Below are positions 30,070 to 33,059 of a DNA stretch of 44,857 nt, piece after piece. The stretch is from a virus. The notes beneath the pieces are model-generated. The model was not told the origin of the DNA, did no database searches, and saw only the letters and a list, made by a program, of their open reading frames with translations. Location: the UHGV virus genome UHGV-0186980. One strand, 5' to 3'. Every line of letters begins with the position of its first letter. Positions within the stretch are counted from its first letter, which is position 1. Made by a program: the position numbers and the translations under genes.

Positions 30070-31128
30070 CTATGCTTTTATAATTGCGCCGATCGCCAGC
30101 ACCCGATCCAGGAAACGCGCAAACAGTTCTAACTGCGTGCCATATTTCTTCTCGAATGCCGCAAGATCGGTATGTAATTCTTCGTGGCACACTCTGCACA
30201 GTGGGATCACGAAGAGGTCATGTGCTTTTGTTGCTGTACCGCCCATCCCATGCCCGATGATATGGTGCGGGTCGTCTGCCGGGCGGCGGCAGCCCTCGCA
30301 GGGTTGCGTTTTAACCCAACGAGTGTACTGCTCACAGGTCCAACGGCGCCGCTTCGGTCGCAGCATGAACGACTCTGGTGATTCAGGATCTACCTTTAAT
30401 GCCAGAATCTCCGCCTGCTGCTCGGTCTGCAGGAATTCGTTATTCCTGCGCTTCGTCGCAACTCCTGCAGGTTTCACTTTCTCCTGCAGAACGCTGGTGG
30501 CCGCTGGCATCGGAATAATGTCGCTTTCTTTATAAACTGATAAAAATGGCTCCTCCGGCATACGCAGAGCGCGCTGCGCCATGGTCTCCGTAATGGTGTC
30601 GGCAATACCAGACTGCACAGCCCACCAACACAGCTCAGCGAGAGAAAGAGAGCGTTCTTTGTTGTAGCCAAGGGCGATCAGTACGGTATCAATAACCCAG
30701 TCGATGACGTTTTTCAGCGCCAGATCCTGGAGTTCCGCTGTAGTCTGTTCACGCAAATTATTGTCGCAGTACCAGCACACCAGAAGCGCACCGGGCGGGT
30801 ACCGCATGGTTACCAACTCAGCGTGGTGGTATTCGGAGTGAGGATACTGGCATGCCTTATGCCGGTAATTAAGCCAACGTTCGAGCGCTGATAACCCACC
30901 AGCAGCCTGGATCACGCGCTCATCGGAAAAGAACGCATGAAGGGTGGGATCCTCTGCCAACGGCTGCCGGGCATCTGGTACCCGGCCAGACGGCAACCGG
31001 GCCATATTTTGTGGCTCAGCCTCTACCAGGACACGCCCGGCAGAAAAGAGCCGCATAAGTTCTCGCCCTGGTTTGAAAAGCACAACGCCAAGGCGCGGTA
31101 CGATTTCGGGAGTAAGTAAAGCCCTCAT
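30070..31128 (-). CDS. DUF968/YdfU-like protein with C-terminal HNH-like Cys/His motif (nin-region)
   Basis: 352 aa; CEGCRRPADDPHHIIGHGMGG...CRVCHEELH; ATGA overlap with upstream MTase. Confidence 0.55.
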   Translation of the reverse strand: MRALLTPEIVPRLGVVLFKPGRELMRLFSAGRVLVEAEPQNMARLPSGRVPDARQPLAEDPTLHAFFSDERVIQAAGGLSALERWLNYRHKACQYPHSEYHHAELVTMRYPPGALLVCWYCDNNLREQTTAELQDLALKNVIDWVIDTVLIALGYNKERSLSLAELCWWAVQSGIADTITETMAQRALRMPEEPFLSVYKESDIIPMPAATSVLQEKVKPAGVATKRRNNEFLQTEQQAEILALKVDPESPESFMLRPKRRRWTCEQYTRWVKTQPCEGCRRPADDPHHIIGHGMGGTATKAHDLFVIPLCRVCHEELHTDLAAFEKKYGTQLELFARFLDRVLAIGAIIKA

Positions 31129-33059
31129 GCAACCTCCCTCTGCTCAGGTATGCACATTTCCGGTAAATTTGCCCTTACCAGTGCTTCAGCGAATGGTGGA
31201 GGAACAGCGTTTCCACAACGAGCGACCTGTTTATCTTTTGCATAACGATTACCGCGGTAATCGCGATCAATAATGTAATCCGCAGGAAATCCCTGTGCCC
31301 TGTATAACTCATGAGGCTGCAGCATGCGCATTCCAATATCGATAATCTGATATTTGACGCCGTAGATCGTCACCAACCATTCATTTGGGTTTTCTCCACA
31401 GTACGTTTCAAGGAAGGTTCTAACTTCTCCTACATGTTGGCCACCAGCGGTGATCGTAGGCATTGGGTCGTCCAGTGGCTGCCCGTCCTGGCATGTACCA
31501 CGAAACTTGACCAGATGAGAGGCAACAACAGCGTGATGATCTACTGTCGTCACAGAATGCGTCGGTTCATCAAGGCCGATCCCCGGCCCGGTATAATTTC
31601 CACCGTAGTGCTTTGCCAGGAACGCGCTGACCGTCGCAAACTTATTGCCGCCGGCGGTGACCGTACCCAGGGGATTATTTAGCTTCAGTACCCGTGGCTC
31701 CTGGCCTGGACGTTCACCGTAGCCCATCTGGATCAGAGTAGGCGTCACCAGTTGCGATTTACCGCCGCCACCAGCTGTGATTGTTGCGCTGGGCTCATCC
31801 GCCCGGTGCCCGATGCTGGCGCCAAACTGGCGCGCGATAATCGGAGCGACGACACAGGCGCGCGACTCTTTCAGGACGGTGTGAACGGGTTTATTCAGCG
31901 GCCGTGGTTTCGCCTGATATTCACTACCACCGTTTCCCGCGAGGAACGGGATCAGACCCGCCTCAACAATCCCCAACGCATGCCCATTCCCGCCCGGGCG
32001 CTTAGACGTGCCGGCGGTTACCGTCGGTAACGGTTCGGAGACTGGCTGCCCGGTGGCTCCAGTTCGGAATTTTGTCAGATGAGGTACCGCAATTGCGTAG
32101 CCGTGGGTTTTCGTAATCGTTTGTAGCGGATCGTCCAGCGCCTGTCCTCTGAAACAATCATATTTGCCTTTAGTGGTCGTATGGTTGCACTTCACGATGA
32201 ATGGCGATGCGCTCTCAATAACGAAGCGCTGTATGCCGCGCGCAATACGTTTCAGCGTATTCTCTGCCAACGGTTTTTTTCGGTCGAAAATAGACTTCGC
32301 CGGAATATCCCAGTCGATACACTCAGCAGCGGTTCGCCATGGCGCCAGTCTTCCGCTCTGTACTTCCAAAGATTTCGGATCCCCATGGGTTGGCGCTGGC
32401 CAGCGTACACTTTCACCGTCGCAGCGCATCACCATAAAGAAACGTTTGCGGATGGTCGGCGCCCCGAAGTCGCAGGCGCGCAACTCGCGGTAATCGATGT
32501 TGTATCCCAGCCCCTGAATCAAAGACAAAGCATGCTCGCTACCTGGCGCGATGGACAGAAACTCGCACACCTCCGCAAGCGCCGGATGATCCGGATCAAT
32601 GCCGGTAGACAACATGCCAACGAATGCAGCAAACGTTTCTCCGGTACGCGCCGGATCCGGGCGCATCTCATCCTCCAGCAGCGGCCCCCAGGTTTTAAAC
32701 TCTTCGACGTTCTCCAGCATCATGACGCGGGGACGCTTCGCCAGCGCCCAGCGAATGACGACCCACGCCAGTCCCCTGATCTCTTTTTTTACCGGTTTCG
32801 CGCCCTTGGCTTTGGAGAAGTGCCGGCAATCCGGGCTGAACCATGCGAGACCTACAGGGTTTCCGCCCGTCGCCGCCACCGGATCGACATCAAATACAGA
32901 CTCACAGTAATGCAGCGTATCCGGGTGGTTCGTCTTGTGCATGGCAATGGCGTTTTCATCATGGTTGATGGCGATGTCAACACTGCGCCCAATCGCCAGC
33001 TCGATTCCGGTAGACGCGCCGCCGCCGCCAGCAAAGTTATCAACGATAATCTCACGCAT
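31125..33059 (-). CDS. DNA cytosine-5 methyltransferase with ~6 repeated TRD-like T(V/I)TAGG motifs (possibly multispecific)
   Basis: Motif I DNFAGGGG, ENV (MLENVEEF), RxR (TIRKRFF), C-terminal GNAV; motif IV reads FSPDCRHFS; start refined to MREIIVD. Confidence 0.75.
   Translation of the reverse strand: MREIIVDNFAGGGGASTGIELAIGRSVDIAINHDENAIAMHKTNHPDTLHYCESVFDVDPVAATGGNPVGLAWFSPDCRHFSKAKGAKPVKKEIRGLAWVVIRWALAKRPRVMMLENVEEFKTWGPLLEDEMRPDPARTGETFAAFVGMLSTGIDPDHPALAEVCEFLSIAPGSEHALSLIQGLGYNIDYRELRACDFGAPTIRKRFFMVMRCDGESVRWPAPTHGDPKSLEVQSGRLAPWRTAAECIDWDIPAKSIFDRKKPLAENTLKRIARGIQRFVIESASPFIVKCNHTTTKGKYDCFRGQALDDPLQTITKTHGYAIAVPHLTKFRTGATGQPVSEPLPTVTAGTSKRPGGNGHALGIVEAGLIPFLAGNGGSEYQAKPRPLNKPVHTVLKESRACVVAPIIARQFGASIGHRADEPSATITAGGGGKSQLVTPTLIQMGYGERPGQEPRVLKLNNPLGTVTAGGNKFATVSAFLAKHYGGNYTGPGIGLDEPTHSVTTVDHHAVVASHLVKFRGTCQDGQPLDDPMPTITAGGQHVGEVRTFLETYCGENPNEWLVTIYGVKYQIIDIGMRMLQPHELYRAQGFPADYIIDRDYRGNRYAKDKQVARCGNAVPPPFAEALVRANLPEMCIPEQREVA

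What the first reader, a model, noticed from the sequence alone, without database searches (positions are those of the whole stretch)
31125..33059. C5 cytosine methyltransferase with repeated TRD-like motifs and an atypical catalytic motif IV
The protein has motif I (FAGGGG), ENV, RxR and C-terminal GNAV, but the catalytic-Cys region reads FSPDCRHFS rather than the usual (G/F)PCQxFS. The C-terminal half holds about six spaced repeats of P-x-x-T-(V/I)-T-A-G-G (LPTVTAGT, SATITAGGGG, LGTVTAGGNK, MPTITAGGQH, HSVTTVDHH, LQTITKTHGY). Multispecific phage C5 methyltransferases have several target-recognition domains each with a T-(V/I/L) core, so this enzyme may methylate several sequence contexts as an anti-restriction device.
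Basis: partly seen in the sequence, partly recalled or inferred. Interest (0 to 1): 0.6.

Follow-up and report, generated by a model that had tools for sequence, protein, structure and literature searches.

The report
Phage cytosine methylase with modular repeats
This prophage gene encodes a DNA cytosine-5 methyltransferase from a large phage family whose DNA-recognition region is a chain of small, swappable modules (seven here); tested relatives shield DNA from many restriction enzymes, so it is most likely a broad-spectrum anti-restriction enzyme and not a one-off oddity.

Summary
The minus-strand ORF 31125-33059 encodes a 644-aa protein with C5-methyltransferase motifs I, VI, VIII, IX and X. 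Motif IV reads SPDC instead of the usual Pro-Cys. Between motifs VIII and IX lie seven ~33-aa repeat units plus a remnant.

Neither feature is peculiar to this gene. SPDC is present in 120/120 close homologues and 144/150 distant representatives of a very large phage and prophage family. Those representatives carry 1-12 repeat units each.

Close homologues (76-94% identical) differ by loss, gain or swap of whole units: 9 combinations of 11 unit types. Each unit type keeps its own conserved polar loop across distant taxa.

Relatives have been tested. The Paracoccus prophage enzymes JCM7686_0772 and JCM7686_2655 gave partial protection against about 16 cytosine-methylation-sensitive restriction enzymes. 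Aeromonas ARM81mr_p29 (45% identical, same SPDC and repeats) is cited as having relaxed specificity.

The best reading is a lytic-cycle, broad or multi-site C5 methylase used for anti-restriction. It is translationally coupled to a Dam-family methylase.

Whether each unit acts as an independent target-recognition domain is plausible but unproven. AlphaFold did not fold the array, and the units show no detectable similarity to known TRDs.

Verdict: a new member of a known kind, with an architecture I found described in none of the papers I could read.

The parts
31125..33059 (-). CDS of the 644-aa C5-cytosine DNA methyltransferase (ATG at 33059, stop codon 31125-31127)
   Evidence: ORF listing. 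Pfam PF00145 at 1.2e-21, 77.9 bits against a cutoff of 22. PHROG DNA methyltransferase families. Homologues start at the same Met.
33018..33035 (-). Motif I, FAGGGG (AdoMet-binding loop), aa 9-14
   Evidence: Invariant in alignments A2 and A3.
32814..32840 (-). Motif IV, FSPDCRHFS, aa 74-82. Cys78 is the catalytic nucleophile; it is preceded by Asp77 instead of the canonical Pro.
   Evidence: SPDC is present in 120/120 close homologues and 144/150 50%-identity cluster representatives. Inteins are inserted exactly at this Cys in some members.
32706..32714 (-). Motif VI, ENV, aa 116-118
   Evidence: Invariant in A2 and A3.
32442..32456 (-). Motif VIII, TIRKR, aa 202-206. The RxR is kept; the usual Gln is Thr.
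   Evidence: T202, R204 and R206 are invariant in A2.
32100..32204 (-). Repeat unit A, aa 286-320 (PFIVKCNH...LQTITKTHG). This is the 'first-position' unit type.
   Evidence: Unit HMM hit. This type lies mostly at position 1 of arrays.
32004..32099 (-). Repeat unit B, aa 321-352 (..HLTKFRTGATGQ..LPTVTAGTS)
31863..31964 (-). Repeat unit C, aa 366-399 (..FLAGNGGSEYQAKPRP..VHTVLKES). It is absent from some 609-aa homologues.
   Evidence: Barcode ABDEFG occurs in 9 homologues.
31761..31862 (-). Repeat unit D, aa 400-433 (..IARQFGASIGH..SATITAGGGG)
   Evidence: It is missing in one homologue (barcode ABCEFHG).
31641..31760 (-). Repeat unit E, aa 434-473 (..IQMGYGERPGQEPR..LGTVTAGGNK). It is absent from 605-aa homologues. 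The loop signature GYGER.GQ.PR is conserved across Alpha- and Gammaproteobacteria.
   Evidence: (barcode ABCDFG in 14 homologues).
31533..31640 (-). Repeat unit F, aa 474-509 (..FLAKHYGGNYTGPG..THSVTTVDHH)
31434..31532 (-). Repeat unit G, aa 510-542 (..HLVKFRGTCQDGQ..MPTITAGGQH)
31362..31433 (-). Truncated eighth unit, aa 543-566 (VGEVRTFLETYCGENPNEWLVTIY). A full unit (type K) occupies this place in P0034 and P0028.
   Evidence: Alignment A1; barcodes.
31284..31331 (-). Motif IX, MRMLQPHELYRAQGFP, aa 577-592
31194..31217 (-). Motif X, CGNAVPPP, aa 615-622
33052..33939 (-). Upstream Dam-family N6-adenine methyltransferase (295 aa). Its stop codon overlaps the ATG of the C5 gene (ATGCGTGA).
   Evidence: Pfam PF05869 at 1.1e-44 and TIGR01712 at 1.3e-58. 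The overlap is read directly from the sequence. The same gene pair is found in E. coli prophages.
30070..31128 (-). Downstream DUF968/HNH-like gene (352 aa). Its ATG overlaps the C5 stop codon (ATGA). The Q antiterminator gene follows at 29351-30199.

Best explanation
The gene encodes an active, AdoMet-dependent DNA cytosine-5 methyltransferase. It belongs to a large phage and prophage family defined by the motif IV signature S-P-D-C-(K/T/R)-H-(F/H)-S-K-A and by a variable-number tandem array of ~33-aa units between motifs VIII and IX.

It lies in the early (replication-to-Q) region of a lambdoid prophage. It is translationally coupled to a Dam-family adenine methylase upstream and a DUF968/HNH gene downstream. 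It would therefore be made during lytic growth (inferred from position).

I propose that it methylates cytosines in several short sequence contexts. This would leave progeny phage DNA pre-protected against many restriction systems in the next host.

The proposed mechanism has three parts:
- The catalytic domain flips the cytosine and attacks C6 with Cys78. This is inferred from conserved Cys78, Glu116, Arg204 and Arg206 and from the predicted fold.
- Each repeat unit has a strand, then a type-specific polar loop, then a P-x-x-T-[VI]-T-A-G-G loop. I propose that each unit acts as a miniature target-recognition module.
- One unit at a time would be presented to the DNA major groove beside the active site, so the set of units sets the set of targets.

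Shown here: the motifs, the repeats, unit modularity, family membership, and the published broad protection by relatives. Inferred: activity of this particular protein, timing of expression, and the one-unit-one-target rule.
For: Catalytic core:
- PF00145 scores above the gathering threshold.
- The AF2 catalytic domain has pLDDT above 90.
- Best Foldseek matches are C5 methyltransferases: 3g7u, DNMT1, MET1, M.HaeIII, M.HhaI.
- C78, E116-N117-V118, T202, R204, R206 and G616-N617 are invariant in 85 diverse sequences.
- Inteins sit exactly at the catalytic Cys in several members. On general knowledge, inteins typically sit in essential active sites.

Family:
- 8728 cluster representatives at E <= 1e-3 and 2590 at E <= 1e-30.
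- SPDC in 144/150 representatives and 120/120 close homologues.
- 1-12 units per protein.
- Present in phages of Pseudomonas, Vibrio, Aeromonas, Burkholderia, Rhizobium, Pectobacterium, Citrobacter and others.

Function of relatives:
- PMC3925955 and its Additional file 8 report relaxed specificity and partial protection against 16 of 28 restriction enzymes.
- PMC5537653 and PMC6536676 link ARM81mr_p29, Phi2LM21_p23 and Pyei1_p05 to those enzymes.
- I verified SPDC plus 5-8 units in all three.

Modularity:
- 9 unit barcodes from 11 unit types occur among 121 proteins that are at least 76% identical. Units C, D, E, H, I and K are individually present or absent.
- Unit types recur at different array positions.
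- Their most conserved residues are type-specific polar loops: GYGER.GQ.PR, GVGGRAGQS.PR, TEHANAS.QR, MVNTTGH, GAGGP.Y.GKP.

Operon coupling with Dam is read from the sequence.
Against: - There is no experiment on this protein.
- One family member, Phi2LM21_p23, showed no activity in E. coli (PMC5537653).
- The published assays are restriction-protection only and gave partial protection. They do not separate several discrete targets from one very short relaxed target. [quoted passage not shown] They also do not chemically identify the modification.
- AF2 gives no confident fold for the unit array, in either the query or a 478-aa minimal homologue.
- The unit profile finds no TRD of a solved C5 methyltransferase. 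Against M.SPBetaI it gives only a weak match of 17 columns, E = 0.035.
- The canonical Pro of the Pro-Cys dipeptide is absent.
- TIGR00675 (dcm) scores below its cutoff, 57.8 against 100.65.
Confidence: 0.6

Rival explanations
1. This is one relaxed-specificity enzyme and not a modular multispecific one. The repeat units stack into a single extended DNA-binding scaffold. The enzyme then methylates cytosine in a very short context (for example CC or GC dinucleotides) wherever it binds. Units would tune affinity or processivity and would not each encode a target.
For: - Relatives give only partial protection at many unrelated sites.
- PMC5537653 summarises their specificity as a cytosine in 'CC'.
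- Units are short (about 33 aa), smaller than the 38-52 aa I recall for Bacillus-phage TRDs.
- There is no detectable similarity to known TRDs.
- Repeat proteins of the solenoid kind often tolerate unit loss.
Against: - Sites without CC (AGCT, ACGT, CTCGAG, GCGC) were protected, while sites with CC (CCATGG, CCWWGG, GGNNCC, CCGCTC) were not. That pattern fits a list of discrete targets better than one dinucleotide rule.
- Unit types keep sharply conserved, type-specific polar loops across proteins that are otherwise at most 50% identical.
- Unit types occur at varying array positions.
Confidence: 0.25
2. The protein is catalytically dead or has been repurposed, for example as a DNA-binding regulator of phage replication. 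The reason would be loss of the canonical Pro-Cys dipeptide and of the motif IV Gln.
For: - Asp replaces the near-universal Pro.
- TIGR00675 scores below its cutoff.
- Phi2LM21_p23 was inactive in E. coli.
- The authors of PMC5537653 speculate about a role in replication because of the gene's position.
Against: - The same SPDC motif is present in ARM81mr_p29, which PMC5537653 cites as active.
- It is also present in Pyei1_p05, about 69% identical to the active Paracoccus enzymes.
- All other catalytic and AdoMet-binding residues are invariant across the family.
- Inteins target the Cys.
Confidence: 0.07
3. The Asp-Cys variant marks a different chemistry: a C5 modification other than methyl, another cofactor, or another pyrimidine target. 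Restriction protection by relatives would then not be due to plain 5-methylcytosine.
For: - Motif IV differs consistently from Pro-Cys-Gln, reading Asp-Cys-(Lys/Thr/Arg)-His.
- The published evidence is restriction protection only.
- A natural C5-carboxymethyltransferase with the same fold exists (8yf3, among the Foldseek hits).
Against: - Motif I and the motif X Gly-Asn are canonical.
- Glu of ENV and the RxR arginines, which read cytosine in M.HhaI (general knowledge), are kept.
- No accessory modification genes lie next to the gene. Its neighbours are Dam, DUF968/HNH and Q.
- Methylation is the simplest reading.
Confidence: 0.05

Closest known systems
Phage/prophage 'relaxed-specificity' m5C methyltransferases of the Radlinska/Dziewit studies: JCM7686_0772 and JCM7686_2655 (Paracoccus aminophilus prophages), ARM81mr_p29 and ARM81ld_p31 (Aeromonas phages), Pyei1_p05, Phi2LM21_p23
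   Same: - Full-length homology: 45% identity with 100% coverage to the ARM81mr locus, 41% to Pyei1, 35% to phi2LM21.
- The same SPDCxHFSKA motif IV and the same tandem units.
- Size of about 560-700 aa.
- An orphan gene in the phage early/replication region.
- The expected phenotype is broad protection from cytosine-methylation-sensitive restriction enzymes.
   Different: - Different unit composition: seven units, barcode ABCDEFG.
- An enterobacterial lambdoid context, coupled to a Dam-family gene.
- This protein itself is untested.
- The passages and full-text term searches I made in those papers do not mention the repeats, TRDs or the Asp-Cys motif.
Multispecific C5 methyltransferases of Bacillus phages (M.SPRI, M.Phi3TI, M.Rho11sI, M.SPBetaI) and M.BssHII
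   Same: - One catalytic core, with several short recognition modules in tandem between motifs VIII and IX.
- Modules carry a T-[LIV] core.
- Modules can be lost individually. For the Bacillus enzymes this is established knowledge from the Trautner laboratory, recalled from memory. For this family it is shown by natural variants.
- A phage-borne anti-restriction role.
   Different: - No specific relatedness. BLASTP to M.SPBetaI gives E = 0.002-0.013 over short stretches, and the unit HMM and unit profile do not significantly match its TRDs.
- M.SPBetaI has the canonical GFPC motif IV, whereas this family has SPDC.
- Units here are shorter (about 33 aa), mutually homologous, and more numerous (up to 12).
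Monospecific C5 methyltransferases (M.HhaI, M.HaeIII; prophage CP-933R enzyme, PDB 3g7u)
   Same: - The same fold for the catalytic domain and the same motif order I-IV-VI-VIII-TRD-IX-X.
- A single P-x-P-T-I-T-T-like element before motif IX is common in ordinary enzymes. An example sequence is printed in PMC11954522.
   Different: - Seven copies of that element plus a remnant, instead of one.
- Asp-Cys instead of Pro-Cys.
- A variable region of about 330 aa, against roughly 80-100 aa in M.HhaI (recalled from memory).
Non-specific phage adenine methyltransferases (M.EcoGII, Hia5, ARM81ld_p56, PhiOS31_p25)
   Same: They have the same proposed biological logic: a prophage-borne orphan methylase, silent in the lysogen, that blankets DNA against many restriction enzymes (PMC7556043; PMC7736820).
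   Different: They have different chemistry (N6-adenine, beta-class DPPY enzymes) and no homology to this protein. My initial recollection that M.EcoGIX resembled this protein was wrong.

Membership tests
C5-cytosine DNA methyltransferase superfamily (Pfam PF00145) | Profile match above the curated threshold | tested here: met
   PF00145 at 77.9 bits against a cutoff of 22, in three stretches.
C5-cytosine DNA methyltransferase superfamily (Pfam PF00145) | Motif I, FxGxG (AdoMet binding) | tested here: met
   FAGGGG at aa 9-14.
C5-cytosine DNA methyltransferase superfamily (Pfam PF00145) | Motif IV, Pro-Cys dipeptide with the catalytic Cys | tested here: not met
   The Cys is present (C78) but is preceded by Asp: S-P-D-C. 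The same is true family-wide.
C5-cytosine DNA methyltransferase superfamily (Pfam PF00145) | Motif VI ENV, motif VIII (Q)xRxR, motifs IX and X (GN[AS]V) in canonical order, with the variable region between VIII and IX | tested here: met
   ENV at 116-118, TIRKR at 202-206 (Gln replaced by Thr), RMLQPHELYRAQGFP at 578-592, GNAV at 616-619.
C5-cytosine DNA methyltransferase superfamily (Pfam PF00145) | Class I methyltransferase fold of the C5 type | tested here: met
   AF2 pLDDT is above 90 for aa 1-250 and 575-640. Top Foldseek hits are all C5 methyltransferases, E = 2.5e-11 to 1e-8.
C5-cytosine DNA methyltransferase superfamily (Pfam PF00145) | Produces 5-methylcytosine in DNA | not testable with these tools
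   There is only indirect evidence from relatives: restriction protection in PMC3925955.
NCBIfam TIGR00675 (dcm superfamily model) | Score above the curated cutoff | tested here: not met
   57.8 bits against a cutoff of 100.65.
Phage 'SPDC' relaxed-specificity m5C methyltransferase group (JCM7686_0772 / ARM81mr_p29 type) | Full-length homology to tested members | tested here: met
   tblastn gives 45% identity and 100% coverage to the ARM81mr_p29 locus, 41% and 100% to Pyei1_p05, and 35% and 100% to phi2LM21_p23. Pyei1_p05 is about 69% identical to JCM7686_0772 and JCM7686_2655 according to PMC6536676. I did not obtain the JCM7686 sequences themselves.
Phage 'SPDC' relaxed-specificity m5C methyltransferase group (JCM7686_0772 / ARM81mr_p29 type) | Motif IV signature SPDC(K/T/R)H(F/H)SKA, plus a tandem array of ~33-aa units (my operational definition) | tested here: met
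   For the query. For ARM81mr_p29, phi2LM21_p23 and Pyei1_p05. For 144/150 representatives.
Phage 'SPDC' relaxed-specificity m5C methyltransferase group (JCM7686_0772 / ARM81mr_p29 type) | Broad protection of DNA against cytosine-methylation-sensitive restriction enzymes | not testable with these tools
   This needs cloning and digestion or methylome sequencing.
Bacillus-phage multispecific C5 methyltransferases (SPR/phi3T/SPbeta class) | Sequence relatedness beyond the superfamily, including TRDs | tested here: not met
   BLASTP to M.SPBetaI gives E = 0.002-0.013 on short stretches. The unit HMM gives no significant hit. hhalign of the unit profile gives probability 1.5%.
Bacillus-phage multispecific C5 methyltransferases (SPR/phi3T/SPbeta class) | Several contiguous recognition modules that can be removed independently | tested here: inconclusive
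   Natural homologues lack or gain single units. Whether their specificity changes accordingly is unknown. The structure prediction of the array is unreliable.
Bacillus-phage multispecific C5 methyltransferases (SPR/phi3T/SPbeta class) | Methylation of several unrelated defined targets by one polypeptide | not testable with these tools
   The relatives' protection pattern is compatible with this but not decisive.

The most novel reading that the evidence does not exclude
The unit array may be a plug-and-play recognition code. Each ~33-aa unit type, defined by its conserved polar loop (for example GYGER.GQ.PR, GVGGRAGQS.PR, TEHANAS.QR, MVNTTGH), would specify one short DNA target. A single catalytic domain could use any of up to a dozen units. 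Phages would then re-assort units by recombination to match the restriction systems they meet.

If so, these would be the smallest known autonomous target-recognition modules of a DNA methyltransferase. The family would be a natural combinatorial library of multispecific enzymes, far larger than the Bacillus-phage examples.
Probability: 0.35. Interest if true: 0.7.

Novelty: new member of a known kind. Interest (0 to 1): 0.45.

Why it matters
How one C5-methyltransferase catalytic domain can serve several recognition domains has been open since the Bacillus-phage multispecific enzymes were described. As far as I know, no structure of such an enzyme exists.

This family offers thousands of natural variants with 1-12 small units. 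It also offers near-isogenic natural proteins that differ by a single unit, which makes unit-to-target mapping directly testable by methylome sequencing.

In practice, prophages of Klebsiella, Enterobacter, Salmonella, Citrobacter and E. coli that carry this gene, together with a Dam-family and a third methylase, could produce virions and transduced DNA that evade many restriction barriers. Enzymes with programmable or very broad 5mC specificity are also useful reagents.

For annotation, the Asp-Cys motif should not be read as an inactivating lesion.

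Tried and rejected
- I first suspected a relative of the single-strand-specific methylase M.EcoGIX. Its paper shows it is a beta-class DPPY adenine enzyme, so it is unrelated.
- AlphaFold2 on the query with an 85-sequence alignment, and on a 478-aa minimal homologue (P0132) with 75 sequences. The catalytic domain was confident, but the unit array had pLDDT of about 30-60 in both. No structural test of 'unit = TRD' was possible.
There was no significant match.
- A sequence search of the PDB with the whole protein gave only weak hits to motifs I and IX-X.
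- DNA-level repeat and tandem-repeat searches found only old, diverged copies. Recent slippage does not explain the unit indels.
- Self-BLASTP of the variable region was uninformative.
- The VP882 phage methylase paper and the ARM81 primary paper (J Gen Virol 2016) are not held in the library. The ARM81 result is therefore cited second-hand from PMC5537653.
- A genome scan for the Paracoccus aminophilus genes using Pyei1_p05 returned 55 other loci but not that genome. The link to JCM7686_0772 and JCM7686_2655 rests on the identities published in PMC6536676 and PMC5537653.
- I considered P1 Dmt-like Dam-C5 fusions. P1 did not appear among the tblastn hits at E <= 1e-20. The N-terminal extensions of P0181 and P0182 have no Pfam domain.

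Full report
**What is there**

The window is a lambdoid-type prophage. It carries an integrase at 41984-43165, a CI-like repressor at 37037-37732, a CII-like gene, an anti-repressor and a DnaD/HTH replication gene at 34190-35053. It also carries a Q antiterminator at 29351-30199 and an endolysin, with terminase and structural genes further left.

The finding is a minus-strand ORF, 31125-33059. It encodes 644 aa from an ATG that homologues share. Its ATG overlaps the stop codon of an upstream Dam-family adenine methyltransferase (PF05869, TIGR01712) in the sequence ATGCGTGA. Its own stop overlaps the ATG of a DUF968/HNH gene (ATGA). The three genes therefore look translationally coupled, between the replication genes and Q.

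**Check of the observation**

P-x-x-T-[VI]-T occurs five times, against 0.028 expected from 20,000 shuffles.

The cores belong to seven ~33-aa units, at aa 286-320, 321-352, 366-399, 400-433, 434-473, 474-509 and 510-542. A truncated eighth unit follows at 543-566. The units resemble each other well beyond chance: mean pairwise score 34.8 against 18.1 +/- 4.0 for shuffled units. A unit HMM has the consensus FALVAAFLVKHYGGGRTGQPLDEPLHTVTAGGHH and recovers all seven. At the DNA level the copies are only 63-71% identical, so the duplications are old.

**It is a C5 methyltransferase by profile and fold**

PF00145 scores 77.9 bits against a cutoff of 22. AlphaFold2 models the catalytic domain at pLDDT above 90. 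The model's best PDB matches are all C5 methyltransferases: the CP-933R prophage enzyme 3g7u, DNMT1, MET1, M.HaeIII and M.HhaI.

The one departure is the Pro-Cys dipeptide, which reads Asp-Cys. The narrower dcm model TIGR00675 scores below its cutoff.

**Neither oddity is private to this gene**

The protein has thousands of close homologues annotated 'DNA cytosine methyltransferase' in Klebsiella, Enterobacter, Salmonella, Citrobacter, Kluyvera and E. coli. In a library of 50%-identity cluster representatives it finds 8728 proteins at E <= 1e-3 and 2590 at E <= 1e-30.

SPDC is present in 120/120 close homologues and 144/150 listed representatives. Two representatives have SPTC, one has SPAC and three lack the region. 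Representatives carry 1-12 units, most often 5-7.

Several members of about 930-1113 aa have an intein inserted exactly at the catalytic Cys (SPDC|FPAGT...). Pfam detects Hint, intein-splicing and LAGLIDADG domains in them.

The family occurs in phages of Pseudomonas (F116), Vibrio, Aeromonas, Burkholderia, Rhizobium, Pectobacterium (ZF40), Citrobacter (phiNP), Myxococcus (Mx4), Roseburia and Halobacterium (phiH).

**The units behave as modules**

Among the query and its 120 nearest homologues (at least 76% identical), the array occurs in nine versions built from eleven unit types:

| Barcode | Number of proteins |
|---|---|
| ABCDEFG (the query's version) | 37 |
| ABCDEFIG | 39 |
| ABCDEFHG | 16 |
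| ABCDFG | 14 |
| ABDEFG | 9 |
| ABCDEFHGK | 2 |
| ABCDFHG | 2 |
| ABCDEFIJ | 1 |
| ABCEFHG | 1 |

Single units are thus dispensable or exchangeable while the rest of the protein stays nearly identical.

Across the distant representatives, unit types recur at different array positions. The best-conserved residues within a type are not the hydrophobic strand. They are a type-specific polar loop just before the P-x-x-T motif: GYGER.GQ.PR, GVGGRAGQS.PR, GAGGP.Y.GKP, TEHANAS.QR or MVNTTGH. The Paracoccus phage protein Pyei1_p05 carries the 'RAGQSRPR' and 'YGERQGQSPR' types also seen in the enterobacterial proteins.

**What is known experimentally**

Dziewit et al. (PMC3925955) cloned two Paracoccus aminophilus prophage m5C methyltransferases, JCM7686_0772 and JCM7686_2655. 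They reported 'relaxed substrate specificity'.
- Partial protection was seen against AluI, BglI, Bme1390I, BsuRI, CaiI, EcoO109I, EcoRII, Hin6I, HpaII, HpyF10VI, MspI, NciI, PauI, PvuII, TaiI and XhoI.
- No protection was seen at CGCG, TCGCGA, GATC, GGNNCC, CCWWGG, CTAG, CATG, GANTC, CCGCTC, ACGCGT or CCATGG.

PMC6536676 states that Pyei1_p05 is about 69% identical to those two enzymes. Pyei1_p05 is my hit H36, at 41% identity over the whole query.

PMC5537653 states that Phi2LM21_p23 (my hit H52) is 44% identical to them but was inactive in E. coli. It also states that ARM81mr_p29 (my hit H19, 45% identical to the query) and ARM81ld_p31 are m5C methyltransferases with relaxed specificity.

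I confirmed that ARM81mr_p29, Phi2LM21_p23 and Pyei1_p05 all have SPDCKHFSKA and five to eight units. The Asp-Cys motif is therefore compatible with activity, and broad protection is a property of this family.

Term searches of PMC5537653 found no mention of TRDs, 'target recognition' or multispecificity. The passages I read in PMC3925955 and PMC6536676 do not mention them either. I could not read the primary ARM81 paper.

**Relation to classical multispecific enzymes**

M.SPBetaI, taken from the SPbeta genome, shares only superfamily-level similarity: BLASTP E = 0.002-0.013 on short stretches. The unit HMM does not hit it. The unit profile aligns weakly to its segment FKENGEPAFTVNTIDRH, with E = 0.035 and probability 1.5%. 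The unit profile hits no solved C5 methyltransferase and not M.HhaI.

Ordinary monospecific enzymes typically carry a single 'P-S-P-T-I-T-T'-like element before motif IX. An example sequence is printed in PMC11954522. The present family looks like a tandem amplification of that element.

This protein therefore works like a multispecific enzyme by architecture and by natural modularity. It is not a member of the SPR/phi3T class. The equation of one unit with one TRD remains an inference. AlphaFold2 could not fold the array in either the query or a 478-aa homologue with three units. That may reflect flexibility without DNA, or repeat-confused alignments.

**Most likely mechanism and its rivals**

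The most likely mechanism is an early-lytic, AdoMet-dependent C5 methylase that modifies several short contexts and so pre-protects progeny DNA. The unit array would supply alternative recognition loops to a single catalytic domain. I put about 0.75 on 'active, broad or multi-site C5 methylase' and about 0.5 on the modular one-unit-one-target rule, for an overall confidence of 0.6.

The rivals are:
- a single relaxed scaffold (0.25);
- an inactive or regulatory protein (0.07);
- a different C5 chemistry (0.05).

The pattern of protected and unprotected sites fits a list of discrete targets better than one dinucleotide rule. Sites without CC were protected and several sites with CC were not. 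The assays gave partial digests, however, and cannot decide the question.

**Verdict**

The gene is a new member of a known, widespread and lightly characterised family of phage relaxed-specificity m5C methyltransferases. What may be new is the recognition that this family is built from a variable, re-assorting array of ~33-aa modules with type-specific loops, and that Asp-Cys is its hallmark. This makes it a good system for the open question of how multispecific C5 methyltransferases work, but it is not a categorically new kind of element.

Noticed in passing
Family members P0131, P0168, P0189, P0212, P0213, P0214, P0241 (not in the window): Homologues of about 930-1113 aa carry an intein inserted exactly at the catalytic Cys of motif IV (SPDC|FPAGT...). 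Pfam detects Hint_2, Intein_splicing and LAGLIDADG domains in the two that I scanned.
   Followed up: partly
window 27739-28815 (-): This is a third DNA methyltransferase in the same prophage: 358 aa, PF01555 N6_N4_Mtase, PHROG DNA methyltransferase. It lies between Q and the lysis genes. That is the same position as the non-specific adenine methylase PhiOS31_p25 described in PMC7556043, but I did not test homology to it.
   Followed up: partly
window 27298-27711 (+): A HicB-like antitoxin gene (PF15919) sits next to the third methyltransferase, on the opposite strand. I did not look for a partner HicA toxin ORF.
   Followed up: no
window 33052-33939 (-): The Dam-family methylase is 295 aa. 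Its Pfam Dam domain ends near aa 198, and the roughly 95-aa C-terminal extension matches a separate PHROG (phrog_16025). In phage Flotzy the gene overlapping the match (one of three listed) is annotated as a PAPS reductase, and phrog_33262 matches as such a fusion family.
   Followed up: partly
window ~22500-25300: A low-GC stretch (0.40-0.47 against about 0.52-0.57 elsewhere) contains only short ORFs of at most 96 aa. It lies between the HNH/terminase side and the lysis genes and is possibly a moron or cargo region.
   Followed up: no
Alignment A1, columns ~133-156 (between motif VI and motif VII; query aa ~130): Two close homologues (P0014, P0061) carry a roughly 22-26-aa insertion inside the catalytic domain, just after WGPLL. 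This is a second indel hot spot unrelated to the repeat array.
   Followed up: no
L009, L012, L037, L046 (Paracoccus sp. ME4 chromosome NZ_CP151276.1): One genome carries at least four separate loci of this methyltransferase family, presumably in different prophages.
   Followed up: no
window 39471-40298 (+): A DUF2303 protein (PF10065, phrog_210, function unknown) lies in the region between the immunity genes and the integrase.
   Followed up: no
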